Part shown: positions 872 to 39,400 of the stretch, piece by piece
How positions within the stretch are numbered: position 1 is the first letter of the stretch
Layout of the letters: the number at the start of each line of letters is the position of its first letter
DNA from: Tubulanus polymorphus
Taxonomy: Eukaryota; Animalia; Nemertea
DNA length: 64,000 bases
Reading direction: 5' to 3'
Assembly: GCF_964204645.1 (NCBI RefSeq)
Contig: NC_134029.1
Coordinates: 6,262,001-6,326,000 of the forward strand
Made by a program: the position numbers and the translations under genes
The notes under the pieces: generated by a model
The model's database searches: none
Seen by the model: the letters and a program-made list of their open reading frames with translations, nothing else
What the model was told of the DNA's origin: nothing

Positions 872-9904
<9,033 letters not shown>

Positions 9905-10944: not shown

Positions 10945-12067
10945 GAATGTGTAAAAAATCCAAAAAAATTTGCCGATCCTGACAACTGCTGCTAGAATCT
11001 ACTCAAAGAGAATTAAGATAAAAATGCCCAGTTGCAGTCATAACTTAGTCTTAAAAAGTGATTTAAAATCATCACTTGATCATCAACCTGGGGCCAGTTG
11101 GTGAAAAGTTGGTTTAAGATAACTGGAGGATTGATACCAAAGTAACCATGAACTTTTGATTTTGACGATGTCAACTATCCATGCAACTTTGGAGCAACTG
11201 GCCCGTGGATTCTATCTAAAGCCATGACTGCTACTGACCCCAGAATTTATTGTGGTTTATGGTGATGTGTGACCTACTAGATAATTTGCACAGTTCTCCA
11301 GTCCTTGGCAAAAAAATCCTCGTAAGCAACCTCTAATAATCACAAGGTAAAACTTTCCATGACCGAGGAGGAACAATGTCCATCCAGTAAGGATTGGAGT
11401 TAAAACGATTTCCTTCGCCATTTCAGGAGAGCTACGGGTATATTGATAAAATTTTATTGAATACAAAATATTTGATATTATCCATTACAAATCACTAACA
11501 GGCTGTATAATTATATGATATATAAAAAATAGTAAATGCACTATTACAATTAAAACTTTGGCAAATTTTCGCTCCCTACACCCAGATTTATCTGTTAAAA
11601 AATGTTACAGGGTCCCTACCACCCCTCGGTTACTTAAAAACTTCGAAACAGAGAATTCTCTCGAGGTGCTAGAAACTCTTGACGGTGCTTAATATGAGCA
11701 AAATGCCTGAAACTCCTTCAATTTTGTGAAATAGGCAATTGGAAATGTGTGTAAGATAAACTACACCTAAATCGAAACCTGTAAAGGATAAAAATTTGCT
11801 CACAAAACCACCAAATTACCGTAATGGTTTACCGAGATAAACGGTACCGATTCAGGAGTCTATTGTAATTGGGATATGAAAGCCATGCAGACACTTCCTA
11901 AAAATTTGAAATTAATTCCTTTAAAACGTATAGCCAGGAATGACTGTAGGGACCCTGAGTAAGTTTGTGTATGATCATTGGTGAGGAAAACTCTTCCATT
12001 GTGGGAAGTTAAATCGTATGAAATCAAATTATTGAGTGTATGAATTTTACACCATGTGTAACAACTT

Positions 12068-14362: not shown

Positions 14363-15103
14363 CTTATCCTGAAAAATTGCAATCAAATTGAACAAATGTG
14401 CATAATGAATACGGTATCCAGAAGACAAAAAATAGATTAAAGGCTTATTTAATTAGGTCTAACTAAGACATAGGCATATTCAAATAGGGATTAGGCCTAC
14501 TAGAGGCAACATAACTTATCATTAAAAAATAGTCAGTGACCTGTCAGTCACGACACTGATGTTGCAGAAAAATATTGACTTAGAAGCCCTACAACTAACA
14601 AGAGACAACTTCTAGATGTGACAAGTTGCCACGAAGATGGATTCCAATGATCCAACCACTCAATTGGAGGCTGTGTTAGGTGTACGGCTGTGGAAGGAGA
14701 GCATTTTTCAGGAGAGCTAAGTCTTCGCCCCTTCATAGTAGAGCCGGGTGGGTGATTCAGCGAGGGAACAGAACACGAGGCAAATGACTGGAGGGAGCCG
14801 GGGCAGGGCCTAACCAGCAGGGCAGGTCAGGAAGGGTGGGGACGGACGGAGTAGGGAGGGGGAGAGAGGCCAGACAGAGCAGAAGAGATGGACGGGGAGG
14901 GAGGGAAGACCGAGACGATTTCATCTTTTATTCATTTGCATTTATTTGTAAACATTCGTTAATCCACGTATTCTATGCATGAAGTAACCAGTATTTCACC
15001 TAAATCAAACTCCCACCGGAATAGATGCGGCCTTAAAATCAGTAGAACCAGAAGAGACAAGTTTCTCGGAACAATCAATAAACTTAATTTGATTGTCAAT
15101 TAC

Positions 15104-15415: not shown

Positions 15416-18400
15416 ATGACGGCTACGGCAGCGCTAGAAAACAGTCGTTTTTACGTCTCTCAGCTTCTTCAAGGAGGCCACCTCGGCTCGAAATTTCATC
15501 AGTTATTCATCACCAGCAGGGAGCCGACAGAAAAGTACGTTTCTTTTTCTCTCTGTTCCCACTATTTCTTGTAGCTGTAATGAATGAGTACATGTAAAAA
15601 CCGAAAGTGAAGCTGAGAAAAAATTGGGCCTAAAAAATTAGTTTTTAAGGAGGCCCTTACTATCTGAATAAACTGGCTTACTGAATTATCATTGACACTA
15701 ATGTAATTATCTACAAATTGTAAAGGAAATAAGTGATAAAATTTTTTATTTTTTCTATGTGGAGATTTTTTTGATCACCAGCCAGTAAGAATTCGGTTGG
15801 CCCTCCCCCAACAGTTTTTGGAAAATAGATAAAACTGTATTGTAGTAGTCTGAATAGGCCTATAGCGTACAGCTTAGCCTACTCTTTTACAGAAGCTAGA
15901 TACTATTTGGTGCATCATTAAAAAACAGAGGTTGAGTCTATGAATTGATTTTCTTGTAGGAAAAAGACTGAAAAAAAGAAAGTAACTAAAAAGAAAATCA
16001 AACCCAAACCGAAGGAAAAACAAAAAGCAGTTAAGGTAAGCCCAAGTGTTGGTTTTCCTATGTACCGCTAGATTTTCACAGTCGGCTGACTCAACAGATT
16101 TAGTTTTTGTTTTGTTCGAATTTATTTTGTCTTTGAAATAACTACCACTCAACAATGAAATTAAACTTAGGCCTACAATATTGTGCCTAGTTCCTCAGTT
16201 GGGGTTAGAATCTGACTTTATGAAAATGAACTCATTTTAATTTGAATCTCAAAATTTTAATGCGGCCTTGTGGACTACAACCATGGCTGATGCTTCTTTT
16301 AAATATTATTAATTAAAGCACAGGGTGGCCACTGACCTGGAAAACCTGGAAAACTCAGGGTATTCAAATAATGTTGTTCAACGCTTGTTTCTTTATCAAT
16401 ATGTGTTCAATGAAAAATGAATGTAACATTTTAAACCTAGAAATTTCTCTGATTCGCTCTTGGGAATTTTGTGTAATGACATGGAAAAATCTGGGCTAAC
16501 TCAATTCATTTTCAAATGAGTTGACCCCAGAGTTAAAGATAATACCAGTCTATAAGACTGACCCCGGGCGATTTGTAAATGGGCGAAAAGTGGCCACCCC
16601 GAAGCAGATAAAACAATTGGCTAGGATAATCCTAATAATGTAATGCCATTCTATGCTTTCTTACATTATCGATAGAGAGACAAAAGTCCGGAAAATGCAG
16701 AATTCCATCCTCCGCACATTGAACTGCATGAGAATCCGTCTGCGTTCAGCGTCTACGCGAGCATCAAACAACTCGTGTTAGAACAACAAACGAAAGAAAC
16801 TCGACAGACTTTCGTCGTCGCTCACAGCGCTCAAATATCAGACGGCGACAGCGACGAAGATGAAGAAAAGACGAAAGATCCACAGATCACTATACCTAAG
16901 GTAGGCTTTCAAAATTATTCATTATTATTCCATATATTGTAGATTACATTGGCTACCCATTGTAGAAGGAGTTGACTGATCTTAGCCCAGATCTTCAAGT
17001 GCGTCCATGGCATTGCTCCTGTATATTAACAAAACCTCATCCGCATTAAGACATGTAATAGTGCCCGGGCACATCCTTTCACATATACCTTAATCACCAG
17101 GACCCAGTTGCACAGTAGTGACTTAAGACCAATAAAGGTCTCAAATTGCTAGGTTGGCTACATAACTGAGTTGGTCTAAGACTGGTCTTAAATCTAAGTC
17201 ATGACTGTGTAACAGACCCCAGGGCCTCTGAATTTGGTAGGTATTTCGAGAAAATTGATTTATGAAATTTGTAAGAAAAATGAATATAGTTTGCTGAGTT
17301 TATCAAAACAAAGATTTGTATATACTGGTAAATCATGGCACTGGAGGACAGTAGTAATACTGTGGTGGTGTTATTTAATTGTAGATTGTTGGTCTTGGTT
17401 TGTGCGGTGTATTCGAACTGATTAAAGAGACTCGTATAACTCAACCATCATTATGTACGCGAGCGTTACAAGCCTTGCTCGACATGTTACAAGGTCAAGC
17501 TCCCGAGGGTCTCAAAACCGAACCCGGAGAAGTGATCGGTATGTTGAAATTGATGACACCCTATTTCTCTCTTTCTTGAGAGAGCGATTATACATAATTT
17601 AGCAGCAAGGAGGAGATCCATCAGCAAAAATGGCACTTTCAATATTTTCACCTCTGATTTGATGATTTCAGATTCGCTGTTTTTGTTATTGATGGAATTA
17701 ACATCGAAGTCGAATCCAGAGCAAAATTGTCAGTCCAGTTATTCTCTAAGCGCTGTAGCATGCGCTTGCCTGATCAGTCTGGTTGTCGGAAGAGGAGACA
17801 CTGGCAAGCTGTTGTCTGCTATTGGTGCTATGTTGATGAGCTCGGCGAAGTTAGCATCACAGGACATTCGAGTAAGTTTTATGGGAATAATGTAGGAATT
17901 TTTTTGAAAAAGGGAAAAGCCACTGATAAAACATTCTTTTTCTAGCAATGATAATCGACAAACAATTTTTGATTTCATTGCAAATTCTATGATGCTGTGG
18001 TAACTAAAATAGTTTATTTTAAGAAGCTCGGATTTTCTCAACTCAACAACTTAGATTTTTAAGATCTTTCAAAATTTTTCACTCATCATCATTTGACGGA
18101 TCTTTTGAATTTTCATTTTTTGAATTTTTATTTATCCGTTTCGATGTCCCACATTTTGCCGCACTCATATTTCTACTCTAATTATTTCAAGGTGCCGAGC
18201 ATTTTAACGTCGTTACAAAAAAGCGTACAGTCGGCGTTATTAGGAACTACGATTCATCCGGATTGGTTTAACAACGGCATACCGGATAAAGCAAGAACTG
18301 AAGTAATACCAATTATTCTACCGAAAGTAGCAAAACCTGTTCAAATGAAAAAAGGTATGTAATTGTCGAGAATGTGTCATAGTTGTCGGTGAGATAATGT

Positions 18401-21400
18401 GTAAGTAGAAAAGTTAGCGGTGTTAGAGTTCAATGAAAACCCCAAAAAATATCACCGCTATTCCACCCGTGCTGTTGGCAGGTATTTGCTGCATGTAAAT
18501 AAAAGTCGTTTTAAAGATTTCCAGAATTTATTCGAATTTTTGTAACTTAATTATTGTAGTATCGCCGGAGGTTGTATTACACAGCGCGATCGCCTCGGAT
18601 GGTAAATACCTTTACATTCATCACAAAGACAAACTGCTGAAAGTCGGCTCCGGTTACAGTAGTACGATTAAAGGCCACGTCTATTTAACGCGTACCGATT
18701 TCCACGCCAAAGAACGAGGCTGGCTAGCCTATGCTAAGGTAACTACATTCTTAATACAAAATCTGTTTCAACGACCAACGGTTTTATATTTTTAAGCTTA
18801 AAAGATAATAAATTTTCGTTGGGCCATCCAACTATATCTGTATTTTGATATCTGATTTCTAAATAGAACTCTGTTTCATTTTGGCCGGGTGGAGTGTGTT
18901 TGATGGGGAGCAGAACATCAACAAATAAATCTAGAAATCAAACTAATCAATCAAAAAGACGGACAATTACCTATTTTAAGATTGAAGAAATCAAAATTTA
19001 CTGATTGGTTTAACTTGTCTATGTAGATACTACTCATTTTGATAAAATGCTGCCTTGTTGATTTTTCTAGGGAATGCTTTTCTATAAAGATATGGACAGT
19101 GCCTCCGGAGCTTTAGCCGTAATAAATATTGAAACCCTCGATGAGGAAAAACTCTTCAAGTTCGAAGGTAAATAGATACATCATGAAATAGGAAACTCAA
19201 ATTAGGTTATGAGTCTTTGAAGGTTCTTTGAATCTGAATTTTTCTTCCTTAGGGAATAATTTTGGTTCGACTGTGCTGTTTAGCGATGGTGAACATATTG
19301 GACGAGTAGCTGCCTCTAAAGATGTGAGTTAATTTTGATTCATCGCAAGATTGTCGACTTAACAGGGGCCTGATTGATGGGAAAAATTGCAATGAATGGC
19401 GGTCTGCTTGAAAAATTGTGACAAATTTTAAAAATCTGTCAAAAATCATGAAATTCTGTGAAAAAATCAAAAAGATGTCTATGTCAAAATATTTTAATCA
19501 TCTTTCTGCCATATACAATGGAGCTCAGATAAATCCTGGTATTTTATTGTGAGAAAATGTGAATCCAGAATTCATTAATCTGGCCCTTGCTACAAAGAAA
19601 CATAGCTTATACAATGAATGTGGATTGATTATTTCATTGTAGGATAGCTTTGTCGTACGAACGTATGATCCGACTTACAGTCCGATGCCTATCGTTAGTG
19701 AGATACCATTGAAGCTCGCTCGGAAGTGCATGGATGTTTTTGGCACAGCGCCGTTTGACAACCTGTGCGATATTCACAGTATTAATCTCGGTTGTGATGA
19801 AGAGATTCTTTCCGTTACGTCTGGCAAGGAATTCTCACTTGCTCGCACAGCAAGTGGCAAGGTAGGCAATGAATAATCAGGGTCCCTACAACTCCTTGGT
19901 TCCATAGAAACTCCTTATGAACGGAAATTGCTTTTAAAGGTGCTCGAAACAGTGATTGGAATATGAAAGTAATGTGGGCACTTCCTCAAAATTTGAAATC
20001 TTGTGCTTTAAAACACCTTGAAAACTCCTTATATCCAGGACTGACTGATCTGTAGGGACCTGTATAGGCTTACAATCTCGATTTAACCTACCTCAACTTC
20101 AATGACTTGATAATCTATTACTATTTCATTTCTTTTCTCATAGATATTTTATACGGGTAAATCATCTGTGGTAGGTATTAAACACGGTGGCGCTCCGATA
20201 GGTCGATGGAACGAACTGCCAGTCACGAAGTCACCGAGGTTCGTTCAGTATTCTGTCGGTCACGAAGGAATGCACGCGTTACTGGTCACCGAAGACGGCA
20301 CGGTCTATTTCACCGGAACTCCTAAACGAGGGGAAGATGGTGAATCAGGATTAGGTATGTAAATGATAAAGCATATGCAAAATGACCTACATCTTCCTTA
20401 ACAATTGTGGCAAAAATTATCTATCCTAATTGGTGTGACCAGTTTCAACTGTCAACGTTGAATTTCTTTGGTAAATTATGAAAACTTCAATTCGTTTCCA
20501 TGCTATGTATGATGTTGATATCCAACGTTTTCTCTACTGTAGTGGAAGGCAGACGAGCACCGAAACCGATAAAACCAAAGAAAATGGTGAAAATGGAAAG
20601 CAAGATGGTGCTAACAACAGCCTGTAACTACGGAACTAGTGCCTTGGTTACTAAAGATGGGGAGCTTTTCATGTTCGGCAAAGACAACCAACATTGTGAT
20701 GCCACCACTGGTAAGTGGGGACATTGTCTCTGATCTTATAATGTACTGGCACTTAGAATGCAATATTGGTAATCGGTATTTTCTGTGATTATCGTTGAAG
20801 GTCTTGTCACTGATTTGAAAGAAGTTACCGTCACGCAAGTGGTTTTGGGTAAAGCTCACGCAGTCGTACTGACCAGTGATGGATTCGTTTATACATTCGG
20901 TCTCAACAACAAGGGACAGTGCGGCAGAGAATTGTCGTCTGCTCCGAAAGAAGGTGAGTTATTTGAGAAAGCATCCCGTGCTCAATTCCACCGCATCTTA
21001 CGGACCCAAAAACAAATTGGTATGCAGGGGTTAGACTGGGTGGCCACTGTTCTGGAAAACTCAGGGAATTTGGATAATGCTATTCAGTGCGTGTTTTTGC
21101 ATCAATGAAAAATGAATGAATGTAACATTTTAAACCTTCTCTGATTCACTCAGGGAATTTTATGTAATCACATGGAAAAATCAGGGAGAACTCGAGGGAT
21201 TTGTGAATGGCCCTGTAAGAGAATGCTAATTGTGATACTAACGTTTGTGGCTTTTAAAGATATCAAACCAGTTTGGAAAATCTAAATATTTATTTGATTT
21301 GATGTTCTCGCAGTGAGTAGCGTTGTAACTATGGCAGACGAAGAAGATGATATCTATTTCGAGGATATCATTTGTCCACCGGGAAATCACAAATGGAAAG

Positions 21401-24400
21401 ATCAGGAATGTATGGTGTGTATCGTTTGCGGAGAGTGTACCGGATACGGAAACTCGTGCGTTAACAGCCTCAAAACCGAACGAAATCCTGGCCAGTAAGT
21501 TTTATATACGTAGTGAAGCAGTCGAGTATCCAGTTCCACGAAGTCTCTTTTCGAATTCTACATGTATTACACTTGTTTCAGACCGTGTGGATGTGGATCT
21601 GGTGATGCTGGCTGCGTCGAGTGCGGTATCTGTCGATCGTGTGCCGGAGTTGCTGGTGATGATGATAAACAGGAGATACTGTTTGATTTTTTTACGAAAA
21701 CGAAAGAAGCCATTAAAGTGGCACATAATTTAGGTATATTTGGTAGGTTTAGATTGATAGATTTGTCCTCAGCCTGAGTGGCCTCCAATGATATATACTC
21801 AACTACCATATGTAAAGGGTTGATTATCAAATACTGTTACATAGTACTAACTTAGAAAATTTGCGTTTAAGCTTAGGAAAGCTATTGGCTTAACTTAGAT
21901 CAGAGTTAAGTATGCCCAAGTTAATCATGGTTTAACTGAACTAGTAAAGCAACGGCTAACAATGATCTGTGTCCATGTACTTGGAATAAAATGGAAAGAT
22001 CCCACTTGGGAATCAAGTCCACAGTTCTGACTCTTGAAATTAACTAATTTCTACTTAAGAGTCAAATGTTGAAACAAGTCCAGATTGAGATGGTTATGCT
22101 GTTGTCGTTGTATTTCAGGTCGTCGCGGTTCTCGTACTGCCGGTAATATCGGCAAACGATTCAGTGAAGAGAAATACCGCGAGCGAATCAAGAACAAAGG
22201 AGCTGCTGCGGCGTCCCCTGTAAAAAAATACTCTAAATCATGTACGTATTCAAAAGATATTCATTCTATTATACAAGGAAAAATGAAGAATTTGCGCAGT
22301 TCGTGACTTAGAAAATTCAGGGTGGTCACTTACCTGAAAATCAAGGAAAAGTTAGGAAATTTTCTTTTCTTTCAAAAAAAAGATAAGGGAAATTAGTTGG
22401 GATTGCTAGATATCCCACATAAAATCAAACAGTTTCCATATACCCGGTATGTCTTATGTTTTGGACTGTGTTAATTGATTGGATTCTTAGCAGATCAAGT
22501 CAGAGAAAAACAACATGCATGTCGGGGAATTCTTAGGGAAAAGTCAGCGGAAAAGCATGTCAAATATAAGTGGCCACCCTGAAATTTTCCTAACCGCTAT
22601 ATCAACCCATATTTGATCAAAATTCATCGAAGCTTTGGCCTATCGCTGAGTGCTCTGATAATTACTCTAGGAAATGATTGCAATTTTACACAATCATACT
22701 TTCAGTAAGTGAAACGAGCACCGATGCCGAGACTGAACAAGCCAAAACCGTCAGTTTGTCACCAGCCTTGGTTACTATCGGTACCGGCACGATTCCTGTA
22801 ATACATATAGCAAGCGGTCTACATCACACGATAGCTCTGCTCGAAAATGGCGACGTTTACACGTTCGGTCACAATTCTTGTGGACAACTCGGCCTCGGTG
22901 ATACTTCTACTCGGTACGTATCAGTTTTACATTTCATTCATGTATTCCAAATATCAAATACCGGCAATTTATACATTGTGCGGTGTCCCTAAGACTTAAA
23001 GACTCCTTCAGAATGGAAAATGCTTTTAAAGGTGCTTGAAACTCCTTTGATTTATTCATTTGTTCACTATGTTAACTCGGCATATATATTGTTCATTTCA
23101 TTGTTATCTTTAAGTGAAAAATGAATTGTATATTTGATTTGAACAAAATGCAGGAAATTCCTTTAAAACCTAAAAAGATTGATATTGATTCTTAAATTTT
23201 TTGTAGTGGTACCCCATGTAAAGTAATGTTACACCATAAAGCAGTTCAAGTTGCGGCGGGCAGTTCACATTCAGTGATTTTGACATCTACTGGGATGGTC
23301 TACACTTTCGGCGCTTTTCAGGTAAATATCCGTTTACCATGCGTACTAAACCTTCGAAAATATATGGCATTTTCTAACTAATTTGTTTGGTTTGTTTCGA
23401 TGTTTCAGAAGGGACAACTAGGTCGTGAAATTCCAGATGATGGCTTAAGCAAGGACAAAAAGAAATTATGGTTCTCATTGCCAGGTTACGTTCCAGGCAT
23501 TGGTAAGTTGACGAAAGATTCGGATTTCTTGTAAAAACTTGACTGCATATTGTTGCTTGGATTCTTCAGTTGAAGTTTTCTACTCATAGGTATAAAGTAT
23601 GGCAGGAAATGTACATGGATCGGTGCAAGCGGTGACCAGACTTACATGCGAATTGACGAGTCACTGATCAATGCTCATACATTGACGAGATCGAGCATAT
23701 TTGCCAATCAGAGCTCAATCGGTAAGTGAAGTGATAACTCACGAAAACTTTCAGCAGGTTTAGTAAAGTAACAGTGGTGCTTCGTAAGTTAAATGTCTTC
23801 AAATTAAAAGATGAGAGTTTGTAAAAACATTGGTTATTGGTATTATCTGAGGATGGTGCTTGTCAATGTTCAACTTATGCAAACCTTTCTGTCAAAAACT
23901 GTTAACAATCGCAATACTTTACAGATAACAATACTTAGAACGTTTGGAGAAAAATTTCACCAAAGACTCTTTAACATATGATTCACTGTTATCTTGTAGG
24001 ATTGATTCCAAACTGTGAAGAAGGTCAATCGCCAATCAAATGTCTAGTCATCAGTAAAACGGACGGAACGTGTCGAAGTTTTAGCGGAACCGATCAGGCT
24101 AATCTCGGTTTGAATAGCGTCTGCCTTGATCCTTGTTACGACGTTTTATGGAGGTACCCAACATCTTGGCTGAAATGAAATCCTTCATGCAAAAAGATTT
24201 CTGGGTTGACTTAAAAAACTAATTATCGATAACTATATTTCAGTTATTCACCCCAGCGTTCGACTGTGACGTGTTACAATATTTTACGTTCGGAGACCCG
24301 CGACCTCGAGAACCGAAGTCCAAGTGTTTGTAGTATACTCACACCTGAACTGGCCGTACCTACACGTCCAAATTCTATCATATCACGAAGCAATTGTGCA

Positions 24401-27400
24401 CTTTATATGTTAGGTAAGTGTTTACTTTATGGCAAGTGAAACTATGGACATTTGGAAAAGATTCTTAAAACGTCCTTTTCCATAAAGGATGATATATATT
24501 CTATTATTATGACATGTAGTTATAAATATCTTCTTTACAAATAAATGTTATATACCTAAACATTACTCAGCCCTCAACGGGCTTATACAATACCAACTTC
24601 ATTGATCAGACATATCCATGAATGGATTCAAGTGGCACTGAAAAAACATGAACTCTTTTTACTCCAACATTGTTCAGTGAAAGTTGCTAGAGTTATTTGA
24701 TAGTTGACCATTAATGTTTGAAACTGTTGTTGTTTTGGTAGATCTTTGAAATTGTGCATCTCCTGTGCCATATTGACTAAAAGTTCCGTTCTTGTTCATA
24801 TTTCTTACAGTGATGTGATGTTTTAATCTCGCGGCGTAATTATACCTTTTTTGTTCGATTTCAGGTTGTTTGGACACGTTGACGACGGCTTCACAACTTG
24901 GGCTACAAGTCGCGACCGAGGAACACGAAAAACACGCTCCGAATAAAATCTACACGAAGGAAGATTTTAGCGTCGTAAACAGATTCAAAAGTGAGTTGGT
25001 GATTATTCTTACAGATAATCAGAATTATGCGCATATCTTATTTCCTCAAATAATTAATTTTGTTACACCTATTTTAAGGTCACGGTGGAGGTTGGGGTTA
25101 TTCTGATCATTCTGTCGAATCAATCCGGTTCAGTACGGACACTGATATCCTATTAGGTGGTTTTGGCCTCTTCGGTGGACGTGGACTCTATTTCGGCAAA
25201 ATAAAGGTAGATTCTTACTCCACTCGGACTGTGGAAATGAAATGAAATCTTTATAATCCTTTAAACGCGAATTTTGCACCTTGTTTTTGAAGGTGTTCGA
25301 TTTGGGAAATGATGGTGGAGAAAGCGAAACCTACGGCGATTTACTGGCAGAAACTGAAGAAATACCATTTGAATGCGGCCCTAGGTAATATCGATATTGA
25401 TGAAATCATAAAATGGCTCAAAATCAATTCAAGTTAAAAGTACTGTGTTTGCGTACATACATCGGTTGCTTGATACTATTTCACACTATCAGGACTTATA
25501 GCTGAAAAAGGTCCAAAAAAAACCATTGATGAATGGTGGTAAACAGGGTCCCTGCGAGTCCTTGATTCCTTAAAAACTCATTCTAAACAGAAAATGCTCT
25601 AAAGGAGCTTGAAACTCCTTTAGTTTGTGCAAAATGCCTAAAATTCTTTTAAAACTCCTTCAATTTTGAGAAATAGGCAACTAGAAATATTAGTATAAAG
25701 TACACCTAAATCGATAGTTCGGAACAGGACTTTTTTTAGGCCCAATTAGGCAGTTACCAAATTGGAACCAGAGTTTAGTTAGTACAAATGATAAAAATGT
25801 GCTTAGAAAACCACAGAAATAATGGTTTACCACGATAAACAGTACCGATGTAGGAGGAATCTACTGTAATAGGGATTGTAAGTGATGCGAACACTTCCTC
25901 GAAATTTGAAATTTTCAGTAAAACTCCTTGAAAACTCCTTATATCCAGGAATGACCGACCCCGGTAAAATTAAGAACATTTGAAGATAACCGTAGTGGGT
26001 TTGAATCATGATATGTTTGATTCGGAGTTATGTGGCATTGCTTGTCCTGTCATTTTGAAATAGCTGTTGACTCTAATCGGCCTCAAACACACAGAACCCT
26101 GCCTGTCAGATACTTCCTATGAGGTCCGGATGCTCATACAATATCTAATGCAGTTGTATTATCGTTGCATGTTTACTGTTTAAACTTTTAAGGGAAAAAT
26201 TTCTATTTCACCTCGATGAACCGATATTACTCACTGCAAACCAATGGTATTGCGTATGGGCTCGAATCATCGGGCCGAGCAGTGACTGCGGATCCGGTGG
26301 CCAATCTCACGTAGTCTCCGACGATCAGTGAGTATATAAACTTTCTAAATCTACCCGTCTATCTTATCGTGTATCTGTTTCTTACTATAGGGAGGTATAC
26401 ACAATGCTTTTGGATGACCCTGTACCGTTACAAGCGAACTACTGGTACTGTGCCTGGGCTAGTGTATCTGGCCCAAACAGTGACTGTGGCGCTTGTGGAC
26501 AGGCGATGGTTATTACAGAGGACCCGTAAGTAACGGTCGGAGTCGTGTGTTTTGATGTCCACCCAGTTTATTTTCAATTCACTGACATTAGTTTCACGTT
26601 TCAGGCGGCTGTGTTTCATACATTGACGGCATGCTCTTGTAGATTTCTTCAGTTGCATATTTTTCATTCAAGAATGTGTTTTTTTTTCTTCATTTTTCCT
26701 CCTATTATGCGCGCGGATGTGTACTTCTGAGTAGATAGATACTGGGCTTGTGTTAATCACCGTACACGCAGAATAGTGTATCTTTTTCCATTAAATCTCA
26801 AAGCTTCATTTTTAGACTCTGTCAATGTATTATGTAGGTAATCTATTGAATATGTGGAGTCTAAACTCACTGTACTGTAGATATACGTATGCACTTAAAC
26901 TTGTGCAGACCTTAAACACATGCTTCATATTCGTATTTATTTAGTGTTTACGTACGTACCATCTTCGGTGCACTATTTCTTCTCAAATTATAGTCGTCTT
27001 GGATGTCGTGAAAACCACATGCCCAGTGTCCCTCTCTTAGTTTCGTTTATACGATGAATCAGCTGCTGTGGTTATCAGCTTAATTGCATGAATTCCATTA
27101 TTTCATCTGATATTCAGGATCGAAATAAGTAATAGATCTATTTTCATGAATTGTAAACTTTGTACCTTTGTTCATTAAATGTGATGAAGAAGTGACTGAA
27201 TTTATTACTCGTTTTGGTTCTTGAATAAAGATCAGTTTTAAAATTTATGGAAACTGACTATGGCACTGATAAGTTGATTAACAGCGTGTAGCAACTGATT
27301 CAAAAAAGTAATGAATTGTTTCATATGTGTACAATGATCAGTTATAATCGTTAATATGCATCATTTTCATCTCGCGCGCTCGATATGTATTCATTGATTT

Positions 27401-30400
27401 ACATTATGTTTGAATTTGTGATGATTGATTGAAAATTTTCATTGAATTTCGTTTATGTCTATAACAGCATTGATGAATCTATGAAGTTTATGTAGATAAA
27501 CTGATATTATTCGAAATTAAATCTTCAGTAGAGTTTAGGTAGTTGAACAACCATAACAGCTTAAACACAATGAAATATCATTTTCAAATGAATAAGCAAA
27601 TTCATTTGATGCGAGCGTTTTGGGGAATATTTCCCCTCATCAAGTGACTGGAAATGGATCACATAGGTACTTATATACATACTAATCTTTGATAGTCCAA
27701 CCTAAAATTGACTAGTTAACCCTTTCAGTGCTGACTAATTAATACCCTATAGTGCTGGAGAAAATTTGAAAATTCTAAAAAATTCAACCCTAGTGTGTTG
27801 AACAATGGGAATACCACTATAGTGCGTCTACACCGCAGTGCGGTGTATCGTTAGTTACTAGTATTTCACTATGTTTGACACTTGCTGCCATTTTTCAATA
27901 GAGATAATTACAAATTACTAATTACATCAATACACCGCAGTGCGGTATTCTAGCAAAATCCATCACTGATTTATACACCGCACTGCGGTGTAGACGCATC
28001 GAAAGGGTTAAACATGAAGATTAATTGATTGAATAGATTCCACCACTAGATTCATTAAACGAGGGGATATGTTCCCAAAAACGTCTATATTGAATAAATT
28101 TGCTTACTCGTTTGAAAATTAGATATATTGTGTTTAGGCTATTATGGTTGTTCAAAATATTGCTCTCTGTTGCTTTAATACTGACACATGTTGCATTCTT
28201 GATGTATGTACATCCTGTGAAAAGCACGTTTTTAAAGGAATTTGTAGAGTAGAAAGTGTTCATTTTGATAGTTTAGAGCCTGAAATGGCCACCTCAACCC
28301 CACTTCATAATGTGGATTGTGGCTTAGCATGATTTTCTATTATAACCAACTAGCGTTGAAGCAGTTCCGAAAATCTTCCATTAGAATTTGAGTGATTGCT
28401 TAGTTTTTTGACTCGTCGATATCCAAAAGAAATGCGTATGTATTTGTTTTATAGGGTGGCATTCAAATTCAAAAGTTCAAAAAAGTCGAACAATGGAACG
28501 GACGTAAACGCCGGTCAAATACCGCAGATATTGTACAGGTAATTGGCACTGTAAAATTCAAAGGACATTCAGAACAATGGAATTATTTATTCCTTGACAA
28601 TCTTCCCTCATGAAATTTTAAGTAAATTGACATACTGTATATAAATATTTTTGGATTTTTCAGGCTGCCCACAGCAGATAGTAACTCAGGAAGTCGTACT
28701 CATTATCCCTCGGAGCTAATCCATGTAATCAGCCCAGACTTGCCCAGAACAGTTACTCCTGTAAGCTACTTATCTCATTCAATTCTCATTACCGGCAGTT
28801 CAAGTTCCGATCGTATAGCGGCTAATCATTTTCACTCTCCACAGACCATTGTCCCATTATAAAAATTATTGTGAAATCTGTCAATATTTTAGGATTGTTT
28901 CGAGTCGTTGTTGAAATTGTTACACTGGAGTTGGAACACATTCAACGCCGTTATGATGGAGATCAGAGAGCTGAAGGGTACGAACATGGTGGCGGCCATG
29001 TTGGATTTAGAACGATTGGTGTACATAACTACAGCCACATTGAGATTGTTACGCACATATATCTGTGAGGTCTTCCCGAATGGAGGTATATATAGAGATT
29101 CAATATTCTACTTATCAAAAAAGAGAAAAGTAATGAAAGAGGATTCGTAACATATCCTTTTAATTGCAGGGACGAAAAAGCAAAGACCTGAATCGACGAA
29201 GCTCGCTGAAGCAGTAGGTGAAACTCGCGCGTTACTGAGACGTATTCTAACAGAAAATAGAGCCAACATTTACCATCGCGAGAGCATTTCAGTGCCCGGT
29301 TCCGAGCCAAAATACATCAAACTCGGACACCAAATCCTGGAAGAATGCCACGAGACGTTCGTCGCTTGTTTCCACGCGTTTTATCCGACTGGAAGTTTGA
29401 AATGGTTGTGTTTATGTGATCTGTTGAATCTAATCGACCCGGTTTGTAGAATCTTATAAGCTAGTTAAATTTATGAAATCACACTCTGTTGTATTCTCTT
29501 TAATACATTCACTACCGCCGTGTTTCTTCTCGGTTACTACTACGAGTTATCTCGTAGTTTGCAATCGAACGAGTACGTAGTCAGCCATTGTTCAAAAATT
29601 GACCGATGAGCATTGGGGGAATAAAGAGGGTTCGTTCACGTTGCCAGCCAATCAGTAACTGATTCATTCATTTTTGCCGGAGTACAAGTATCTAACTGTG
29701 AATAGGAACGATCACTCGTAGTGGCTATGATGAAAGACCCAGATATCTGAGATATCCGGCAGTGGCACATTTGTACTTCAAAGTAATAGATATTGGTCTG
29801 GCGATGTTGAAATTGTATCATTCTTGTTCATATATAGAGCTATCACGACGTAGAAGGAATCGGTCGTTTATTAGCGGCGGTGATGGAAGCGTTATGTCAT
29901 CCGACGGTTAAACTCAGTAACGTGCTGCCAGTTATGTGTGAATACGAAACGCAATTACTGCTAAAACAACAATATAAACTCGACGATAACAGCCCGGATT
30001 CTCCACAGAGCGGAGACCTCAATAGTTTCCCATTGCTTATAGCTCACATGACTCACCGAACTGAGGTATGTATACTTAGCATTGTAGTGTACATGTATGT
30101 GAGTTTTGGAACCTTGGGTTCGGCCACAGTTCCGACTACACTTGACTTGGAATAAATAATTTCTACCAGAACCTGATAAAGAGATTTTGCATCGTTTCTA
30201 TTAAAGGTTGAAGGTATTGGTACTAGTCATATGTTCAAAGATATTCTCGATAAGTTACTATCAATAGTCACTTTGTCGGTGAAACAGGCTTTGAGTAAAG
30301 AACGCGTTTCGTATTCCGACGAACTAGTACTGAATACCTGCACGCTGTTAACGGCAATCATCAGTGAACTGACCGCTGCGGCTGCTGGATCTGAGGTATG

Positions 30401-33400
30401 TTATCTATTTCATATAAGCATTGTTTTAAGTAGTTTAGGCTGTGAACGAAGTGCAGGTAGAGCCTTGCCGAAAAGATGGTTGCCCAATCCTCAGCTATTT
30501 TGGAAAATAGTTCGTGGAGATACTAATTGATAAGATAGAAATTTTAAGTAGGTGTTTCATTACGTAGGATTGCAAAAAATGTTTTCATCTGTATAGTATT
30601 TCGTATTACGGTAGTTAAAAACTGGTAGTTAGAACGTCAGGGGTGGGATTGATGTGAAAAACTGCAAAGAATAGATGGCTGCTTAGAAAATGTGAAAATA
30701 TGAGAAATCTGTGATTGATCATGAAAATGTTATTGCACTTAATGAAGAAAAAAAATTTGAAAAATCTTGGAAAATTATGTGCACATCTCAAGAGTCCTGA
30801 TATTTTGTCTCGAATAAAGGGGACGAATGTAAGGATCTGAAAAAAATGTGATAATTCTATAGTTCATCAATCTGACCCCTTGATGGTTACGTATACTTTA
30901 ATTTATCTGTTGTTTTGTTTGTTCATAGGGTGAAAGCCCGACTGCAAGTCGACCGTTGTTTACAACACCGAACAGATTTACACGCATGAGTCAGAATGCC
31001 TACTGGAACCCGGGCAACGGTTCACCGGACGCGATATGTTTCAGCGTCGATCGGCCGGGAATTGTTATAGCTGGTGTCGGCGTGTACGGTGGGGGTTCTC
31101 ACTGGGATTACGAACTAGAACTTCTAGACGAAGTCCATGTAAGTTTTATCAATGTACTCATATCAGGAAAAAAATGAATCATAATCATGAGAAGAACTGA
31201 TTAGAAGATTTGTAGAGAAGCGTTGTTAGAGATAGATAATATGCAACTAATGCGTAGTAGCTTGTATCTTGAATAAAGAAGCTACTATGCATCAGTAGCG
31301 AAAGCTTATATCTTCAATACTAGATAATTATGTTTTATTCGATGTTTTCGATTATTTTCAGTCGGAAGGCACGCATGACCCATCTCACACTCAACGTTGG
31401 AATAGTATCGAACTGGCTAAAGGATCTTACGGTTCCGATGACTGCACTAACAACATCAGCGAACTGAAATTCGAACGACCCATTCCGATTAAAGTATGTT
31501 TGTGTGTAGAATTTTAAAAATCTCATTCTTAAAACCTTTAATTTGCTGGGTAACAAAACAATTTGATCAATCGCATCGGTCTTTTACAGGAGGGAGTTAA
31601 ATACGCTATTCGATTACGCAATCACGGGCCGAGAACCTTCAACGGTGATGGCGGACAGTCGAAAGTCAAATGTCAAGATGGAACTACATTTCTATTCAGC
31701 GCGTGTTCATTAAGTAGTAACGGTACGAATCACACGCGAGGACAAATACCACATATTCTATACTACAGGTCTGTATTACATTGAACAAATACAATTGCAT
31801 AGCTAAATCAGTTGAAGTCATTGTCTGAGAACTTTTTCATCGCAAATATGCAACAGTCAGTTACGAATTGGTACACGGTTGTATTACTGTGTTTGTTTAT
31901 TTCAGTGCCCCTCAAGAAGGTGAAAACCGACTTCAGAGCAGTAAAATGATAGCCGAATACCAGGCGCGCAAAAGCATCATTTCGTTGATCGGATCGATAA
32001 TCAGAGCGGCGACTGACATTCTACACAAAGCTCACAGTTGTTTAGGTAACGGTTATATAATCACTTACCCGGTAATACATTTTGTAAACAGTCTGACCTG
32101 TGTCGAGAATTGGCTTTAACGTGTTCTATGATTGTTGTAGATCAAGAAGTGATTAGAATACTCGGTTCAGCGCAGATATTTTGTACGTTGCTCCCGCTGG
32201 TGTTCGCTTACATCGGACCGGTGGCATCTCAGGATCCTAGGGTAGGTTTTCTAATCGACTTTCTAAAATCGAGAATTTGAAGATCGTGGTCATCCTGTAA
32301 AATGATTCGATTTGTCGTTGTAGAGCGCTGTACAAGTTCTGAATTTGGTTCAGGAGATTTTGCCATCTGTTGCGTCGATCAACAGTAAACTCTTGCCGTT
32401 AGTGAGTTCGAATCAACCGGAGATCGGTCCATTGAATTTCGAGTCGTCGACGACGTCGAGTCATTACGCCGAAATCGAAAGCGATCATCCGTACAAGCCG
32501 GCGACGGTCGCCAATTATCGTCTGACGTTTCCGTCGGAGGTGAAGTGGATTTCGATTGAGTTCGACTCGCAGTGCGGAACGGCCCAGGTCGAGGATACGT
32601 TGCAGTTGTACATTCCCTCCAGCGCGATGATCGGTGGCCCTAAAGCTCCGTCGCTGACCGGCAGTATTACGCAGAAATCCGCCATCGCGATCGAAGAGAA
32701 AGACGTCGATCTGACCGATAGCGTGCCGGTTTTACGGAAATTTTACGGTTTAGACAATTGGCCCCAAATGGCTATCGTTTTACCTGGTAAGTCGGTGATA
32801 ATCAACCTGTACTCCTCTACCCACCCCCTGCAGAAAAATCATCGAACAATTTTTTTCGTCTTTGTCCAGGCAATGAAGTTTGCTTTTCATTGGAAACGGC
32901 GTCCGACTACGTGAAAGATGACAAAGCTTGCTTTTATGGATTTAAATGTTCGGCAGTTGGCTACGAATGGACCGGAAAACCTGAAGAAGTATTTAGTTCG
33001 AAACCATCCATTAAATCGTTCTGAAATTCGATGTAGGCTTAGGTTTGATTATGTCCATATATTGTCCATTCATAGGGATTGCTGCAATTGGAAAAAGCTA
33101 TAACTTATCTAGGTGGAATGTGCGCTTCTGCGTTGATGAGAAAAGATATCATCCTACCTCCTGGTATGTTAGACTTTCTTAACTAAAACCTATACTTTAG
33201 AAGATATCGATCAATTTTTTATCGTCTGTTATGTGTGAATTTCAGTAACAATAGAAGAAGCTGAAGAAGATCTCGATTCGCTAGAAGAAAGCGCCGAACA
33301 AGTATTCCAAGCTCATTCCGGATTGCTCGGTAAAGGCTTTGCTCTGTCTCATTCTCTGACGATATCTCAGGCATTAGAAGGCAGTCTTCCGTACAGCTGG

Positions 33401-36400
33401 CAGTCAAACGAACGCGCGTTTCTGAAAGACTTCGTCGCTTGTTCACCGGGTACAAGCGGTGGCAGATTAGCGAGGTATGATTTTGTATCTTTTGTGGAGT
33501 GGTCTGTACTTCCCCCGGGCTTACCCTTGTATGCACTAATGTACATGTAGTTATATTCATCTGTAAAAACATGCACTCTTGAGCCTGATGTCTATTTCAA
33601 CTTTGCTTGAGAGGACATTAGATGGCCTAGCTCAGTCAGATTTAGTAGTACATAGGTCTTATGTCTGATGTAGGCATGGAAACATATGATTAAACATTCA
33701 AATTAACGGAGTTGCTTTTCTCTATTTCACCCCAATCAAAGAGAATTTTGGCAATCCTTCAGTACATGCTCTCTAGCTCAATTTTAACGACATATTCTCA
33801 CTGTATTTTCAGGTGGTTACAGCCCGACTCGTATCTAGATCCAAAACAATGCGAAGTAATGTGTAATAAAGATGATTTACAGTGTAGCTGGCCTACTGTA
33901 ATAACTGTTCATACGAAGGATCAATACGGTCACCTCGTCGATGTCCCCATTCTGAAGGTTCGAGTTAAAAATTACTTAATACTCGGTGAAAATGTGGGAT
34001 CCTTAATTTCTGTATGCCCGCACATTTTCAGGTGGAAGTGAAAGCCATACCTGTTGACAATAAAGAATCCTCCGGCGAAGATACGAAAAAACTACGCCGT
34101 TTCAGTCGACCCGACGAACTGACCTGTCTGATATTCGGAGGTCATCCCCCTCCGCGACTGGACGTTCCGTACGATGTCACGATCAAAGATAAAAAAGACG
34201 CTTATCACTCTATCTGTATGATGAAGGTATGTACTGGTATATTCCATGAACGTATTTTCAATCTGGTTTTGAAATAAACTTCTCGGGTAGGTTTTATAGA
34301 CTGGTGTCGTCATTAACCCGGGGGGTTAGCTCAATTCATTTTCAATTGAGTTAACCCCTGGGTTAAAGTTAACAGGGCCTGGTTTCGGATTAATACTAGT
34401 CTCAATGCTGCTGCCGCAGTGTTTCTTTCAAGTTGCTTCTACGAGTTATCTCGTAGTTGGCAACAGAGCTTTAACGTAGTCAGCTATTGTTAAAAATTCA
34501 ATAATGAGCATTGTGAATGAAGAAAAGTTAGTTCACATTGCCAGCTAATCAGGTACTCTGTCATTCCAATTACCAGCCAGAGTGCTAATAACTAGTGTAT
34601 AAGAGGAATACGCTACAAGATAACTCGTAGTCTCAATAGCGGCAGCACCCGAAATACGATGTATCTCGTAGTTAACAGCGAACATAGTTCAAGAGACCGG
34701 GTTACCAAAAAAAGGGTTTCTTGTAGGCCTAACTGGGATTTGTTACCAATCTGTTTGTTACACCAGGATCGACTCTGTCAGTGATTCATGTTTCTTCTCA
34801 ATTGATTCCAGGCTTATGAAAATTATTCTTTCGAGGAACTTCGCTTTGCGTCGCCGACGATCCGTCGACCGAGTGAAAATATGCTCGTACGCGCGAATAA
34901 CGATGGCACGTACGCAGCGAGTTGGACACCAGGAGGCACTGGTTTCTATAACATCGTCATGACTATCGACGGTTTTGAAACAGGTGAGACGGGTTATTTT
35001 TGCGTCCTCTGGTAATGCGCCGCCTACGGTTTGCGTAATCATCGCGCAGTGTTTCCGAGAAGAAATGAGGAAACCTGCTTCCACCATTAACCTACCTACT
35101 CATTAATGCAATATTATCAATCCTCGGATGACTTAGCATCCGCAGGTCGGGTTTTAACTGACTTACCATCACAAAAACCCCATTTTCAAAGAAAGAAAAT
35201 TATTATTTCATTTTATATTGAATTCTCAGGTGAAGCCTATAAAGTTGAAGTCAAAGATCCACCTCTTGGAGTCACTCCACCTACAAAAGGCACTACTAAG
35301 AAGCCTTCTCATATTCCGAGCAAGGTAATTACTGAAACTACACCCGGTAAATACATGTTTTCTTAAGATATCATTTGCTATTCAGTGTTCTATCATTCTC
35401 CAGACTCGTAAATTCATCGGGAAACACAGCGCCGGTCTGCGCGTCCGACAAAATCCTTCTTTGCAGAGTGAAGAGATCGGAATTATTCCTCCGAATGGCA
35501 TTATTGCCTTCACCGATGAGGTAAATAGTAGTTGAGCTATAAACACGAATGCTTCTATCGCTAGAAATGATCGGCAAATTGAAATGCGCAAATTGTTGCT
35601 GATATTTCAGATCCATAACGACGACGGTGTGTGGGTTCGATTGAGCAATCACTCGATTAAAGAATTCTGCTCAAATGGACATACGGAGGCCTGGTGTTTA
35701 CAGTACAATCAACACCTCGGCAAAACCCTGCTCGTACCCGTCGATGAGCCGAAATCGATCCTCGACGAGATCATCAAAGAAACGTCGACTCGTAAAATGC
35801 CGGATATCCTTCGAGAGCCGTCGTTGAAAGGTCGAGCCGGTGGTCCGGGGGTTTATCAGGTCGTCAAATGCGGCCCGTCGGGTCATAATATTCGCTGCCA
35901 TCCGACGATGAAAGCAACGCCAGTCGGAATGCTCGTCCTCGGAAATCAACTCACAGCTACTGAAGATGTAAGTTGTTTAAAGTTAGTTCATTTCTAAAGG
36001 TCTCCATGAAATCAGCCCGACACTGATAATGCATGCCCTTCTGTAGCTGACTAACTTCAAAATGAAGTCAAACATTCTGATTTGCAGTCAAACAATCTCA
36101 TATCATACACAAGGTCTCGATTCTGGTATGAGAAATGTGGAGGCTGTCGTTCCAAAATACTTAGATAATGTATTGCACCTTCCTCGTTGTTGTATTTAAT
36201 TTAGATCGTGAATGCTGAAGGCGTTTGGGTGAAATTAGACCACACCAGTCAACAGCATTACTGTCACGAAATGGAAGGAGAATCGTGGTCGTTAGCCGTC
36301 GGGGTCGACGATATCGTTTATCTTCAACACGAATCGGAACTCAGCGCCGATTCTGATAACGGCGGCGGCCTCTCACAAGGCGAACCGATGTTCGGGTACG

Positions 36401-39400
36401 CCGCTGCCGCCGGCGGCAATGCGCCCGTAGTCGAACCGGCACCGATGGCGAACGGCTGCCTCGAACCGCCGCCGAAGGGATTCGATTTCACAAACGCGCA
36501 ACAAGTTCCTACCTTCACAGTGTTCAACAATATCAAAAATACAAGTAAGTGTAGATAATCACTTAATGAAAAAATATTTTCATTAATGTATTACATGTAT
36601 ATTTCAGTTCCGTTGTTTATGTTTATTTCAATTCGTTTATTTCTAAATTAATAACTAAAGACCCACACTGAACCGCTTAGATTGATCTTAAACTTAATTT
36701 TGAATGTACTGTTTTGACTGCCGATCTATCGTCCAGTAAATTCAGCTCGTAAATCATATACATGTATGTAAATTGACATTTTAAGAATTTGTATATCTTT
36801 TCTATGTTGGCTGTATTTGTTTTAGGTTCTGCAGGTTAACTACTGACCTGGAAAACCTGAAACATCTAGAAAAAATCAGGGAAAACTCAGGGATTTTGAC
36901 AAATTTTACCAAAAACCTGGGCCCGGTTTCATAGACTGACTATCAAAGTTTTCCCTAGGGGTAAATCCTCAATCTGCCACCATAGTATCAAAGAGAAACC
37001 ATGGTTATAACTGACATATTTCAAAATGTTCCCAGGGAATATTTTGCTTCCACATCTATGAAACCCAGCCCTGGAAAACTTTAGACAATGCTACTGACCA
37101 CATGAATGAATTGTAACATTTTTAACCTGGAAATATTTCTGATTCACTGGGGGAATTTTGTGTAATCACATGATGAGGTAAATAGAAATGAGGCAGAAAG
37201 TGGCCACCCTGTTCTGTTTCTCGAAAAACATAAAATCCGAATTTTCGAATCAATTTCATCTAGGATCTGATTTTAACTCATTTCACTTACGCACATGCAA
37301 ATAATCCAATTTCAAAATGAATTTGAAATTCATCTACATTATCAAGTGTGGTTTAGCATTTGCGTTTTTCTGTAAAACGATATCTCTACATTTTACGAAT
37401 GAAATAAACATCGACCGATCAATGTATTAGAAATGAAAACTGTTGCAGATACTGCCGCATTTCCTCGGCCGGTCGTTTTCGGCCATTTAGATCGTCCCCC
37501 GGCGCCGACGCCGATGCGTGCAAGTGAGTGATTCGTTATTTGTGAATCCGTCGTCGTCGTCGTGGTTGTCTTGCATACGTCGTAGTTTAGATCAAATTTC
37601 ACACCCGTTTTCTAGCACAGATTTGTGAAGTTTTTTAAACATGAAAATCCGATTTATTGATACGTGAAAGTTTGTATTCCGGCGCTGTTTTCCTCGGCCA
37701 CATTTATGTCGATACGCTTTGATTGAAACTCTTCTAACCCTTTAAAGTCCTGGACCCGGTTCCACAGGAGTTAGAGTTAACTCCGAGTTAAAATTAGTTC
37801 ATTTTCAATAATGAGTTAACTCAAGAGTTAAATCTTTACTCAGAAGTGTGGAACTGGGCCCTGATTACATTATTTTATGTCATTTGATTTTAATCGAATT
37901 GCTTTAGACAGTTTTTGAATGTTAGTTTACGATGTCTCAATTTACTTGAATTACATTTTACGTCATTTGATTATTCTCAGTATATCTTCTTGTCTCGTTT
38001 TAAGTCTAGGTTGTTTTTATTCCTTATTATGATTAGTGTAGCCTTTTCATCTTTTACCCGCGGAGTAAAAAGTATTCGTATTTTTTTGTTTGAACAGTTG
38101 ATGAAAAGAAAGGGCTACGAGTTGCCACCAAAGGACCAATGCATGTACCAAAACCAACTGATGAAAACCATAAACGCATTGATGATAGCCACTTATATAC
38201 AGGTATATACTCCTATAGCCATCTTACCCGTGTCTCATTTTTGCCGGATTATTTGAAGTTTTTCATTCTCTTCATGATAGAGTATGGTTCTCCGCCCAAG
38301 GCCGGAGTTAGCGGCAAACCCCCTCCTGGATCGCCAGTCCATCGCGGGGTTTCCAAACTGAGTCCGAAACAACGCGCCGAGAAACCGCAACCTCTGGCGG
38401 TCCCTCCGTCTGCTCCTCCACCATCAGAATTATCGGAGAAAGACAAGGAAATTCCACCGGAACTGCAAGGTGTCTCGGTGAAAGATCTCGTGAAAGCCTT
38501 AGGTGAGATATTAACTAATTCATTTCATTCATTTCAACGGAAAGTTACCAGCGACTAGCTGCTGATTTTAGAATGATCTGGCAACAGGTTTTTGAGACTC
38601 TGATTGCGGTTGAGGGAGAGCTTTCATTTACCACTTCCTTATACACCACCGAACTTACCAGAAATGAAGCTATATCAGCCATATTGAACATCCTCACATA
38701 CGAAATGTGTTTTGTAGAAGGCCGTTAGACTTAAGCTTTTTGTAATGATGTATATATATCGTTAGAATTGCACTATAATACACCTTAAGGTGAAATGATG
38801 AATAAGTATTGTTTCGTTGTTGTGTTCTATGCGAAGTTTTGATATAGAAATACATGAAAACGCAGGCATACGTGCATAGTACGCGTAGAATAGGACTTTC
38901 CGTGGCACTGTCGCGTTGCCAAACTTTTATTTCGATTGGTACAAACTTTTGTTCACACGGTTACAAATAAAATAACTAACATGGCATATTTTTTCCATTC
39001 CTCTTGAAGGACTATTCAAGTGTGGATGTGAGTTGCAATTACGTTTTATTATTTGGCTGGAAAATTATGTGCTGCCTCGTTTTTACTGCCGCCCTCAATT
39101 CAGTTGCTACTCATATTCTTTTCATATTTCGGTTTTTACGGCTCCTTATTTGCTTAAAATGAATATTTACGTATTCATTTTTCGATTGGGTACGCAAAAA
39201 AATGGTCAAAATGAGTTATTCAGATTGTACTCGCACTTTCTCATTTCATTCAAGGAAATTTTCTAGAAATCTATGTCATGACACATGATTGTAAAACGAA
39301 TAGTTTCAAAGCCAGCGAACTGAAATTGATAAAACGTGTTTCTATTCTAAAATCGGCAAAATAGTTCGATGATTCAAATAGGAATCTATTGAAAATAATA

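What the first reader, a model, noticed from the sequence alone, without database searches (positions are those of the whole stretch)
26193..26525. Tandem-duplicated, candidate mutually exclusive exons remodel the MYCBP2/Highwire PHR1 domain
Seen: two 135-nt exons of identical phase, each with its own splice sites, separated by only 63 nt. They align without gaps ([44 protein letters not shown] vs [44 protein letters not shown]). They sit between the ECGP exon (ends 25384) and the [28 protein letters not shown] exon (starts 28455). About half the residues differ, yet both frames are open and keep the WY.W.GP.SDCG core, so both look selected. Established: this segment is single in human MYCBP2, and PHR proteins are neuronal regulators of synapse growth and axon termination/degeneration. 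Inference: including both would duplicate strands inside one fold, so mutually exclusive use giving two PHR1 surfaces is likely. I do not know of this being described for PHR ligases.
Basis: partly seen in the sequence, partly recalled or inferred. Interest (0 to 1): 0.85.

Follow-up and report, generated by a model that had tools for sequence, protein, structure and literature searches.

The report
Twin alternative exons in MYCBP2 PHR1
An invertebrate's gene for the nerve-growth regulator MYCBP2 carries two side-by-side, long-diverged copies of one exon, a pair that a second distantly related animal also seems to have, and the copies are likely spliced one-or-the-other to give two versions of the protein's PHR1 domain.

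Summary
Observation confirmed. Exons A (26193-26327) and B (26391-26525) are 135-nt, same-phase, AG/GT-flanked copies of residues 87-130 of the MYCBP2 PHR1 structure. Silent sites are saturated (pS 0.92, pN 0.32), so the pair is old and both copies were selected. The host groups with a mollusc, not insects. Three new points. (1) The 63-nt spacer is shorter than all 64 other modelled introns of the gene (minimum 74), and any usable branch adenine is at most 46 nt from the donor. A+B stays in frame, so steric exclusion is the likely mechanism. (2) An unnamed protein record, P0052, holds a B-type exon preceded by a frame-shifted second copy with a 52-nt spacer. It shares four rare B residues, so the pair is likely conserved in another animal. 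(3) None of 37 fully seen loci from other animals has a full duplicate. No RNA data were available, so exclusivity and function are inferred. This is a new instance of a known mechanism; my searches found none reported for PHR ligases.

The parts
25079..25206 (+). PHR1 exon 1 (start of the domain)
   Evidence: Pfam PHR 7-41; borders from spliced alignment
25293..25384 (+). PHR1 exon 2, common upstream exon; phase-2 donor at 25385
   Evidence: open frame in all splice forms
26193..26327 (+). Exon A, 135 nt. Keeps canonical K2, E9, R24, S29, S34; has private changes at 4-6, 14, 21, 26, 39. Weak donor (6th percentile of the gene's donors)
26328..26390 (+). 63-nt spacer intron, shorter than all 64 other modelled introns; best branch-like motifs at +21 and +39; stop codon in frame if retained
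26391..26525 (+). Exon B, 135 nt. Carries rare D9, S24, N29, A34, shared with the downstream copy in P0052
28455..28538 (+). PHR1 last exon, common downstream exon
   Evidence: Pfam PHR 125-151
27543..28155 (.). Nested inverted-repeat elements in the intron after B; the inner 292 nt (27715-28006) are absent from the X1 contig. Not part of the mechanism
16661..52793 (+). MYCBP2/PHR-family gene, span matched by homologues
   Evidence: collinear tblastn with full-length homologues; spliced models of 1978 and 672 aa without a stop

Best explanation
An ancient 135-nt PHR1 exon of MYCBP2 is tandemly duplicated in this invertebrate, and the two copies are likely spliced mutually exclusively, likely because the 63-nt intron between them is too short to be removed. 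Shown: duplication, intact splice sites, old divergence with selection on both copies, and a spacer below the gene's intron-size floor. Inferred step 1: the A donor and the B branch point are too close for one spliceosome, so the upstream exon joins either A or B and the A donor can only reach the downstream exon. Inferred step 2: skipping both is in frame but would remove at least three strands of the beta-sandwich, so it should not give a folded domain. Inferred step 3: A keeps the canonical R24/S29/S34, while B carries conserved S24/N29/A34 on a strand and the GPSSDCG loop, so B likely changes a binding or localisation surface of PHR1. What chooses between A and B is unknown; tissue-specific splicing factors acting on the weak A donor are my best guess.
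For: Selection: pS 0.92 vs pN 0.32; identity at second codon positions 34 of 44 vs third positions 12 of 44, Fisher p 5e-6. In a neutral-decay simulation 0.2-3.6% of copies kept both splice sites and an open frame, and 0 of 20,000 per distance also kept 12 conserved residues. Spacer: 0 of 64 modelled introns are 63 nt or shorter; minimum 74, and 24 of 64 are under 100 nt. Every adenine 15 nt or more from the AG lies at most 46 nt from the donor, under the <50-nt criterion of PMC5740500 (passages). In C. elegans, exon pairs with sub-minimal spacers all have 3n lengths (PMC4165533 passage), as here. Fold: in an AlphaFold model of a homologue (L009, mean pLDDT 71.8; 3gbw TM 0.86) the exon spans residues 76-119, starts on the first residue of a strand and covers strands 76-88, 93-101 and 114-116. 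Conservation: a profile of the +1-shifted exon built only from other animals' loci hits residues 16-60 of P0052 over its full length at 55.8 bits (best of 720 shuffles 9.0). The implied spacer is 52 nt. The upstream copy allows K2, E9, S29 and C20 but not the usual V20; the downstream copy has D9, S24, N29, A34, found in 10, 4, 1 and 16 of 130 homologues (joint chance about 3e-4 after correcting for 131 rows, assuming independence). PHR1 directs RPM-1 to presynaptic terminals and axon tips and has a flat conserved surface (PMC4806438 passage).
Against: No spliced read was seen, so neither inclusion nor exclusivity is shown. The branch point is not mapped: the spacer has no strict YTRAY match, and neither do 15 of 26 short modelled introns within 15-45 nt of the AG; a fitted branch model drifted to a pyrimidine motif and was dropped. 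The intron floor rests on 64 predicted introns of one gene. I removed one 63-nt boundary artefact and merged two split predictions, one of which held a 43-nt piece. Window exon A has drifted: five residues (L4, F5, H6, C20, H39) occur in none of the homologues counted, and its donor is weak. P0052 is one unnamed protein record with no DNA seen; its upstream copy fits the consensus (39 of 44) better than window A (34) or B (35), and its host's minimum intron size is unknown. No spliced protein carrying a B-type exon turned up. The 44-column exon tree is unresolved. The loop holding S29 and S34 has pLDDT under 50 at 105-111, and surface exposure was not computed.
Confidence: 0.8

Rival explanations
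1. Only one copy is used in this species now (most likely B); the other was functional for a long time but is silent or nearly so, a recent pseudo-exon.
For: A has the weakest donor of the three (6th percentile) and several residues unseen in homologues, including His at hydrophobic position 6; it has a long end branch (0.64).
Against: A keeps all near-invariant residues, both splice sites and the frame, shows no differences in contigs of a second sample, and is the copy with canonical R24/S29/S34. The upstream constitutive donor is also weak (11th percentile).
Confidence: 0.11
2. The exons are independent cassettes or are both included, giving a PHR1 domain with a 45-residue internal repeat.
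For: A+B is in frame with no stop, 190 aa against 145, so nonsense decay would not remove it. Some animals splice introns of this size (about 40-nt minimum in C. elegans).
Against: The spacer is below this gene's floor. The peptide begins inside strand elements of a sandwich, the situation PMC5740500 section 7 takes as incompatible with cassette use. 0 of 133 proteins checked hold two in-frame copies.
Confidence: 0.05
3. The exons are mutually exclusive, but competing RNA pairings (docking site and selector) or protein repressors enforce it, not spacer length.
For: Such mechanisms account for most human clusters; only 9% were put down to steric interference. The branch point is unmapped.
Against: No pairing of the spacer or of either exon's flank with the neighbouring introns beat shuffles (12 pairings; best 3 of 20 shuffles as strong). 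The spacer region folds no better than shuffles (z +0.94). Without related genomes this test is weak. This rival shares the exclusivity claim and overlaps the best explanation.
Confidence: 0.15
4. Assembly artefact or two alleles collapsed in tandem.
For: None. Only one contig, possibly from the source sample, bridges both exons.
Against: The copies are 55% identical with saturated silent sites, depth is single-copy, both exons occur in a second sample, and P0052 shows the same arrangement.
Confidence: 0.01

Closest known systems
Tandem-duplicated mutually exclusive exons held apart by steric interference (alpha-tropomyosin as cited in PMC4165533; OGDH 4a/4b, PMC7969005; C. elegans egl-15 5B/5A, let-2 9/10; passages seen)
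   Same: Homologous same-phase 3n exons, donor-to-branch distance under about 50 nt, spacer kept short in a second species (52 nt implied in P0052).
   Different: Here the whole intron is short, as in the nematode cases, rather than a distant branch point in a longer intron as in OGDH. The branch point and the exclusivity are not shown experimentally.
MYCBP2/Phr1, Highwire, RPM-1 PHR1 domain (PF08005; PDB 3gbw)
   Same: Collinear full-length orthologue; both exons encode 3gbw residues 87-130. The exon has the same borders in 15 of 37 fully seen loci of other animals.
   Different: Single copy in 37 of 37 of those loci and in all named proteins seen. The only alternative splicing I saw cited for the family concerns Myc binding (title of a reference in PMC4806438).
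Docking-site/selector clusters (Dscam, 14-3-3, Mhc; recalled, plus a mention)
   Same: Invertebrate tandem exon duplicates that vary one part of a folded domain.
   Different: Only two copies here, and no pairing above shuffles was found.

Membership tests
MYCBP2/PHR ligase, PHR1 domain | PHR domain match and collinear full-length architecture to the C-terminal RING region | tested here: met
Tandem-duplicated mutually exclusive exons | Adjacent homologous exons of similar length and the same phase, encoding the same region | tested here: met
Tandem-duplicated mutually exclusive exons | Each copy has its own splice sites and is under coding selection | tested here: met
Tandem-duplicated mutually exclusive exons | Peptide embedded in secondary structure of a folded domain | tested here: met
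   model of homologue L009 only, mean pLDDT 71.8
Tandem-duplicated mutually exclusive exons | Each exon is spliced to both flanks in some transcripts and never to the other | not testable with these tools
   the runs available were contigs with no splice joints
Tandem-duplicated mutually exclusive exons | Pair conserved in another species | tested here: met
   one unnamed record, P0052, read at protein level; DNA not seen
Steric-interference subtype | Spacer below the organism's minimal intron size | tested here: met
   63 nt against a minimum of 74 in 64 modelled introns of this one gene
Steric-interference subtype | Mapped branch point under 50 nt from the donor | tested here: inconclusive
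   all plausible adenines lie at +46 or less, but no strict consensus match and no lariat data
Frameshift/NMD-enforced subtype | Double inclusion breaks the frame | tested here: not met
   A+B is in frame with no stop
U2/U12 incompatibility subtype | A U12-type donor on one side (consensus recalled) | tested here: not met
   donors read GTAATA, GTGAGT, GTAAGT
Docking-site/selector subtype | Conserved competing intronic base pairings | tested here: inconclusive
   no pairing above shuffles; no related DNA to test conservation

The most novel reading that the evidence does not exclude
An old branch of spiralian animals evolved a splicing switch in the domain that targets PHR ligases to synapses and axon tips: a canonical form A and a conserved form B with a rebuilt surface (S24, N29, A34), locked apart by an unspliceable spacer. 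B would send the ligase to a different place or partner, and so marks the residues that bind PHR1's still-unknown ligand.
Probability: 0.4. Interest if true: 0.7.

Novelty: new member of a known kind. Interest (0 to 1): 0.5.

Why it matters
PHR1 is necessary and sufficient to place RPM-1 at presynaptic terminals and axon tips, and how it does so was unknown at the time of the 2016 review (PMC4806438 passage). A natural alternative PHR1 whose changes are kept across distant species points to testable residues (exon positions 24, 29, 34) for that interaction. It would also be a case of isoform switching in a PHR domain, which nine literature searches did not find. The splicing mechanism itself is textbook.

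Tried and rejected
No genome is held for the window. No RNA holder was listed, which is no evidence either way. Three word-index protein searches gave little: exon A alone found nothing, the A-spacer-B read-through found nothing, and a vertebrate query returned only vertebrates. Prokaryote-genome and viral scans gave three weak bacterial matches and nothing. The structure paper PMC2881670 is not held; I cite it only through the review. MYCBP2 had 0 hits in 10 supplement files of PMC5740500, but I ran no positive control and the gene tables may not be among them. Loose ends at 26326 in X2/X3 look like a junction but carry the same letters at intronic places 26628 and 27123, so I read them as adapter. 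The fitted branch-point model was dropped. One row of alignment A3 was in the wrong frame; A3 and A4 were not used for folding. P0068 holds shifted partial copies on both sides of a partial exon, and L032 a near-identical 3' part of the exon; both look like recent partial repeats and were not counted as the same pair. P0057 and P0046 have some B-like residues, but too little flank to test. Only 3 of 18 exon-only records had 60 or more residues of upstream flank, so the shifted-frame test had little reach: 1 of 3 positive. Whether A and B form one clade was not resolved (AU p 0.65); with P0052, the duplication predates the split of the two hosts. Four look-ups of earlier findings gave nothing relevant.

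Full report
Observation. The two exons are at the stated places, 135 nt each, phase 2-2, with canonical splice sites and a 63-nt spacer. They share 22 of 44 residues and 74 of 135 bases. Both match Pfam PHR and residues 87-130 of mouse PHR1 chain 3gbw (E 4e-13 and 3e-14). The window has no third copy. One contig of run X1, which may be the window's source, spans both at single-copy depth; contigs of a second sample hold each exon without differences but do not bridge them.

Gene and host. Homologues align collinearly from 16661 to 52793. A spliced alignment gave exon borders whose N- and C-terminal models translate without a stop for 1978 and 672 residues. In a quick tree of 16 proteins the window's protein is sister to the mollusc Lottia (SH-aLRT 96) and outside the insect and mite groups. 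I read the host as a spiralian invertebrate; sampling is thin, so this is a placement and not an identification.

Age and selection. Silent sites are saturated (pS 0.92) while replacement sites are not (pN 0.32); second codon positions are 34 of 44 identical and third positions 12 of 44. Neutral decay almost never leaves such an exon intact. Both copies keep the near-invariant W18, Y19, W22, P28, S30, C32, G36 and Q37 of 131 homologous segments (columns 27-33 are partly conserved by construction, since I anchored on them). A and B differ from each other more than single-copy orthologues do (22 of 44 against a median of 33 among 24 compared), so divergence sped up after duplication. Both carry C20, seen in 0 of 131 homologues.

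Distribution. A scan of metagenome contigs gave 56 animal loci. In 37 of 56 both flanking coding segments are visible, and none has a second full copy; 15 of the 37 have the same exon borders as the window, so the exon itself is ancient. L032 has a near-identical partial repeat only. None of 133 proteins checked holds two in-frame copies, and all named proteins seen have one. One record differs. P0052, an unnamed 122-residue reading frame, ends in an exon 24 of 44 identical to B. Its residues 16-60 match a profile of the exon read one base out of frame, built only from other animals' loci, over the full length at 55.8 bits; the next of 144 proteins was a partial repeat (P0068, 36.5), the rest were under 3, and 720 shuffles reached 9.0. 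The two copies are 52 nt apart, and the spacer starts with the same translated letters as the window's spacer, which fits the same type of donor. The first copy allows K2, E9, S29 and C20 and excludes N29 and V20. The second has D9, S24, N29 and A34, as window B does; these occur in 10, 4, 1 and 16 of 130 homologues. I infer orthology of A to A and B to B, and a duplication older than the split of two distant species. This rests on one record whose DNA I could not see.

Mechanism. All four splice forms are in frame without a stop, so frameshift decay cannot enforce exclusivity, and the donors are ordinary U2 type (U12 consensus recalled). The spacer is the outlier: the other 64 modelled introns are 74 nt or longer with a cluster at 82-90 (I dropped one 63-nt artefact caused by starting an alignment segment inside an intron, and merged two predictions split by 3-nt exons). 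Any adenine 15 nt or more from the acceptor lies at most 46 nt from the donor, with branch-like motifs at +21 and +39. Published work uses under 50 nt as the steric threshold (PMC5740500, passages and section 7; PMC7969005, passages), and nematode pairs with sub-minimal spacers all have 3n exons (PMC4165533, passages). I found no competing RNA pairing. In a model of a homologous domain (L009; TM 0.86 to 3gbw) the exon covers residues 76-119, with strands at 76-88, 93-101 and 114-116 and a loop at 102-113, so skipping or doubling it should break the sandwich. Exclusive use is therefore likely (0.8), with steric exclusion the most likely cause; none of it is shown by reads.

Function. A keeps the canonical R24, S29 and S34 (86, 129 and 113 of 131 homologues); B replaces them, in both species. 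Position 24 lies on strand 93-101. From the alternation of conserved hydrophobic positions shared with BTBD2 I infer that it faces outward. Positions 29 and 34 lie in the conserved loop. The review states that PHR1 localises RPM-1 to presynaptic terminals and axon tips and has a flat conserved surface likely used for binding (PMC4806438, passages). That B alters this surface is an inference; I could not read the structure paper or compute exposure.

Novelty. Nine searches of the held library found no report of duplicated or mutually exclusive exons in a PHR domain (listings only, except the papers named above). MYCBP2 is absent from the supplementary table of human tandem-exon substitutions in PMC8373072, where OGDH was found as a control (listing and supplement search only). 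The library lacks most subscription papers, bioRxiv supplements were not consulted, and genome annotations of relatives may already list such isoforms. Verdict: a real, probably conserved pair of mutually exclusive exons; a new member of a known kind; interest 0.5.

Noticed in passing
window 38281-38502 and 39559-39798 (+): A second candidate duplicated exon pair in the same gene: two phase 1-1 exons (222 and 240 nt) that end in the same motif (58% over 19 aa, E 0.002), between a donor at 36545 and an acceptor near 41314. Thrips and mite proteins have one copy of the motif. The region is low-complexity and the spacer is about 1 kb, so they could be alternative or both included.
   Followed up: partly
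window 27543-28155: Nested inverted-repeat elements: outer arms 29 nt at 93%; the inner element is flanked by TTAA with CCC/GGG ends (piggyBac-like, label recalled), very high copy, and absent from the X1 contig, so it is an insertion polymorphism.
   Followed up: partly
window about 25540-25960: High-copy repeat in the intron before exon A (summed contig depth up to 11,000).
   Followed up: no
window 26030-27500: Only 1 difference in 1471 nt between the window and the X1 contig around and after the exons, against 11 in 722 nt at 24925-25649. Could reflect constraint on intronic splicing elements or just a shared haplotype.
   Followed up: no
L032 2739-2813: Near-identical partial repeat of the 3' part of the same exon with its donor, 75 nt downstream, amid short repeats: a recent independent partial duplication.
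   Followed up: partly
P0068: Reading frame with partial copies of the exon in three frames in a row: a recent partial tandem repeat or an assembly error.
   Followed up: no
P0057/P0127, P0046: Exon-only records with some B-like residues (A34 and C35; N29); they may be B exons of further species.
   Followed up: partly
window 736-9640 (+), about 12000-14450 (-), about 56600 onward (-): Neighbouring genes look like a ZFR-type zinc-finger RNA-binding protein, a CLN6-like membrane protein and an LRRK-type Roc protein; names recalled from the translations, not searched.
   Followed up: no
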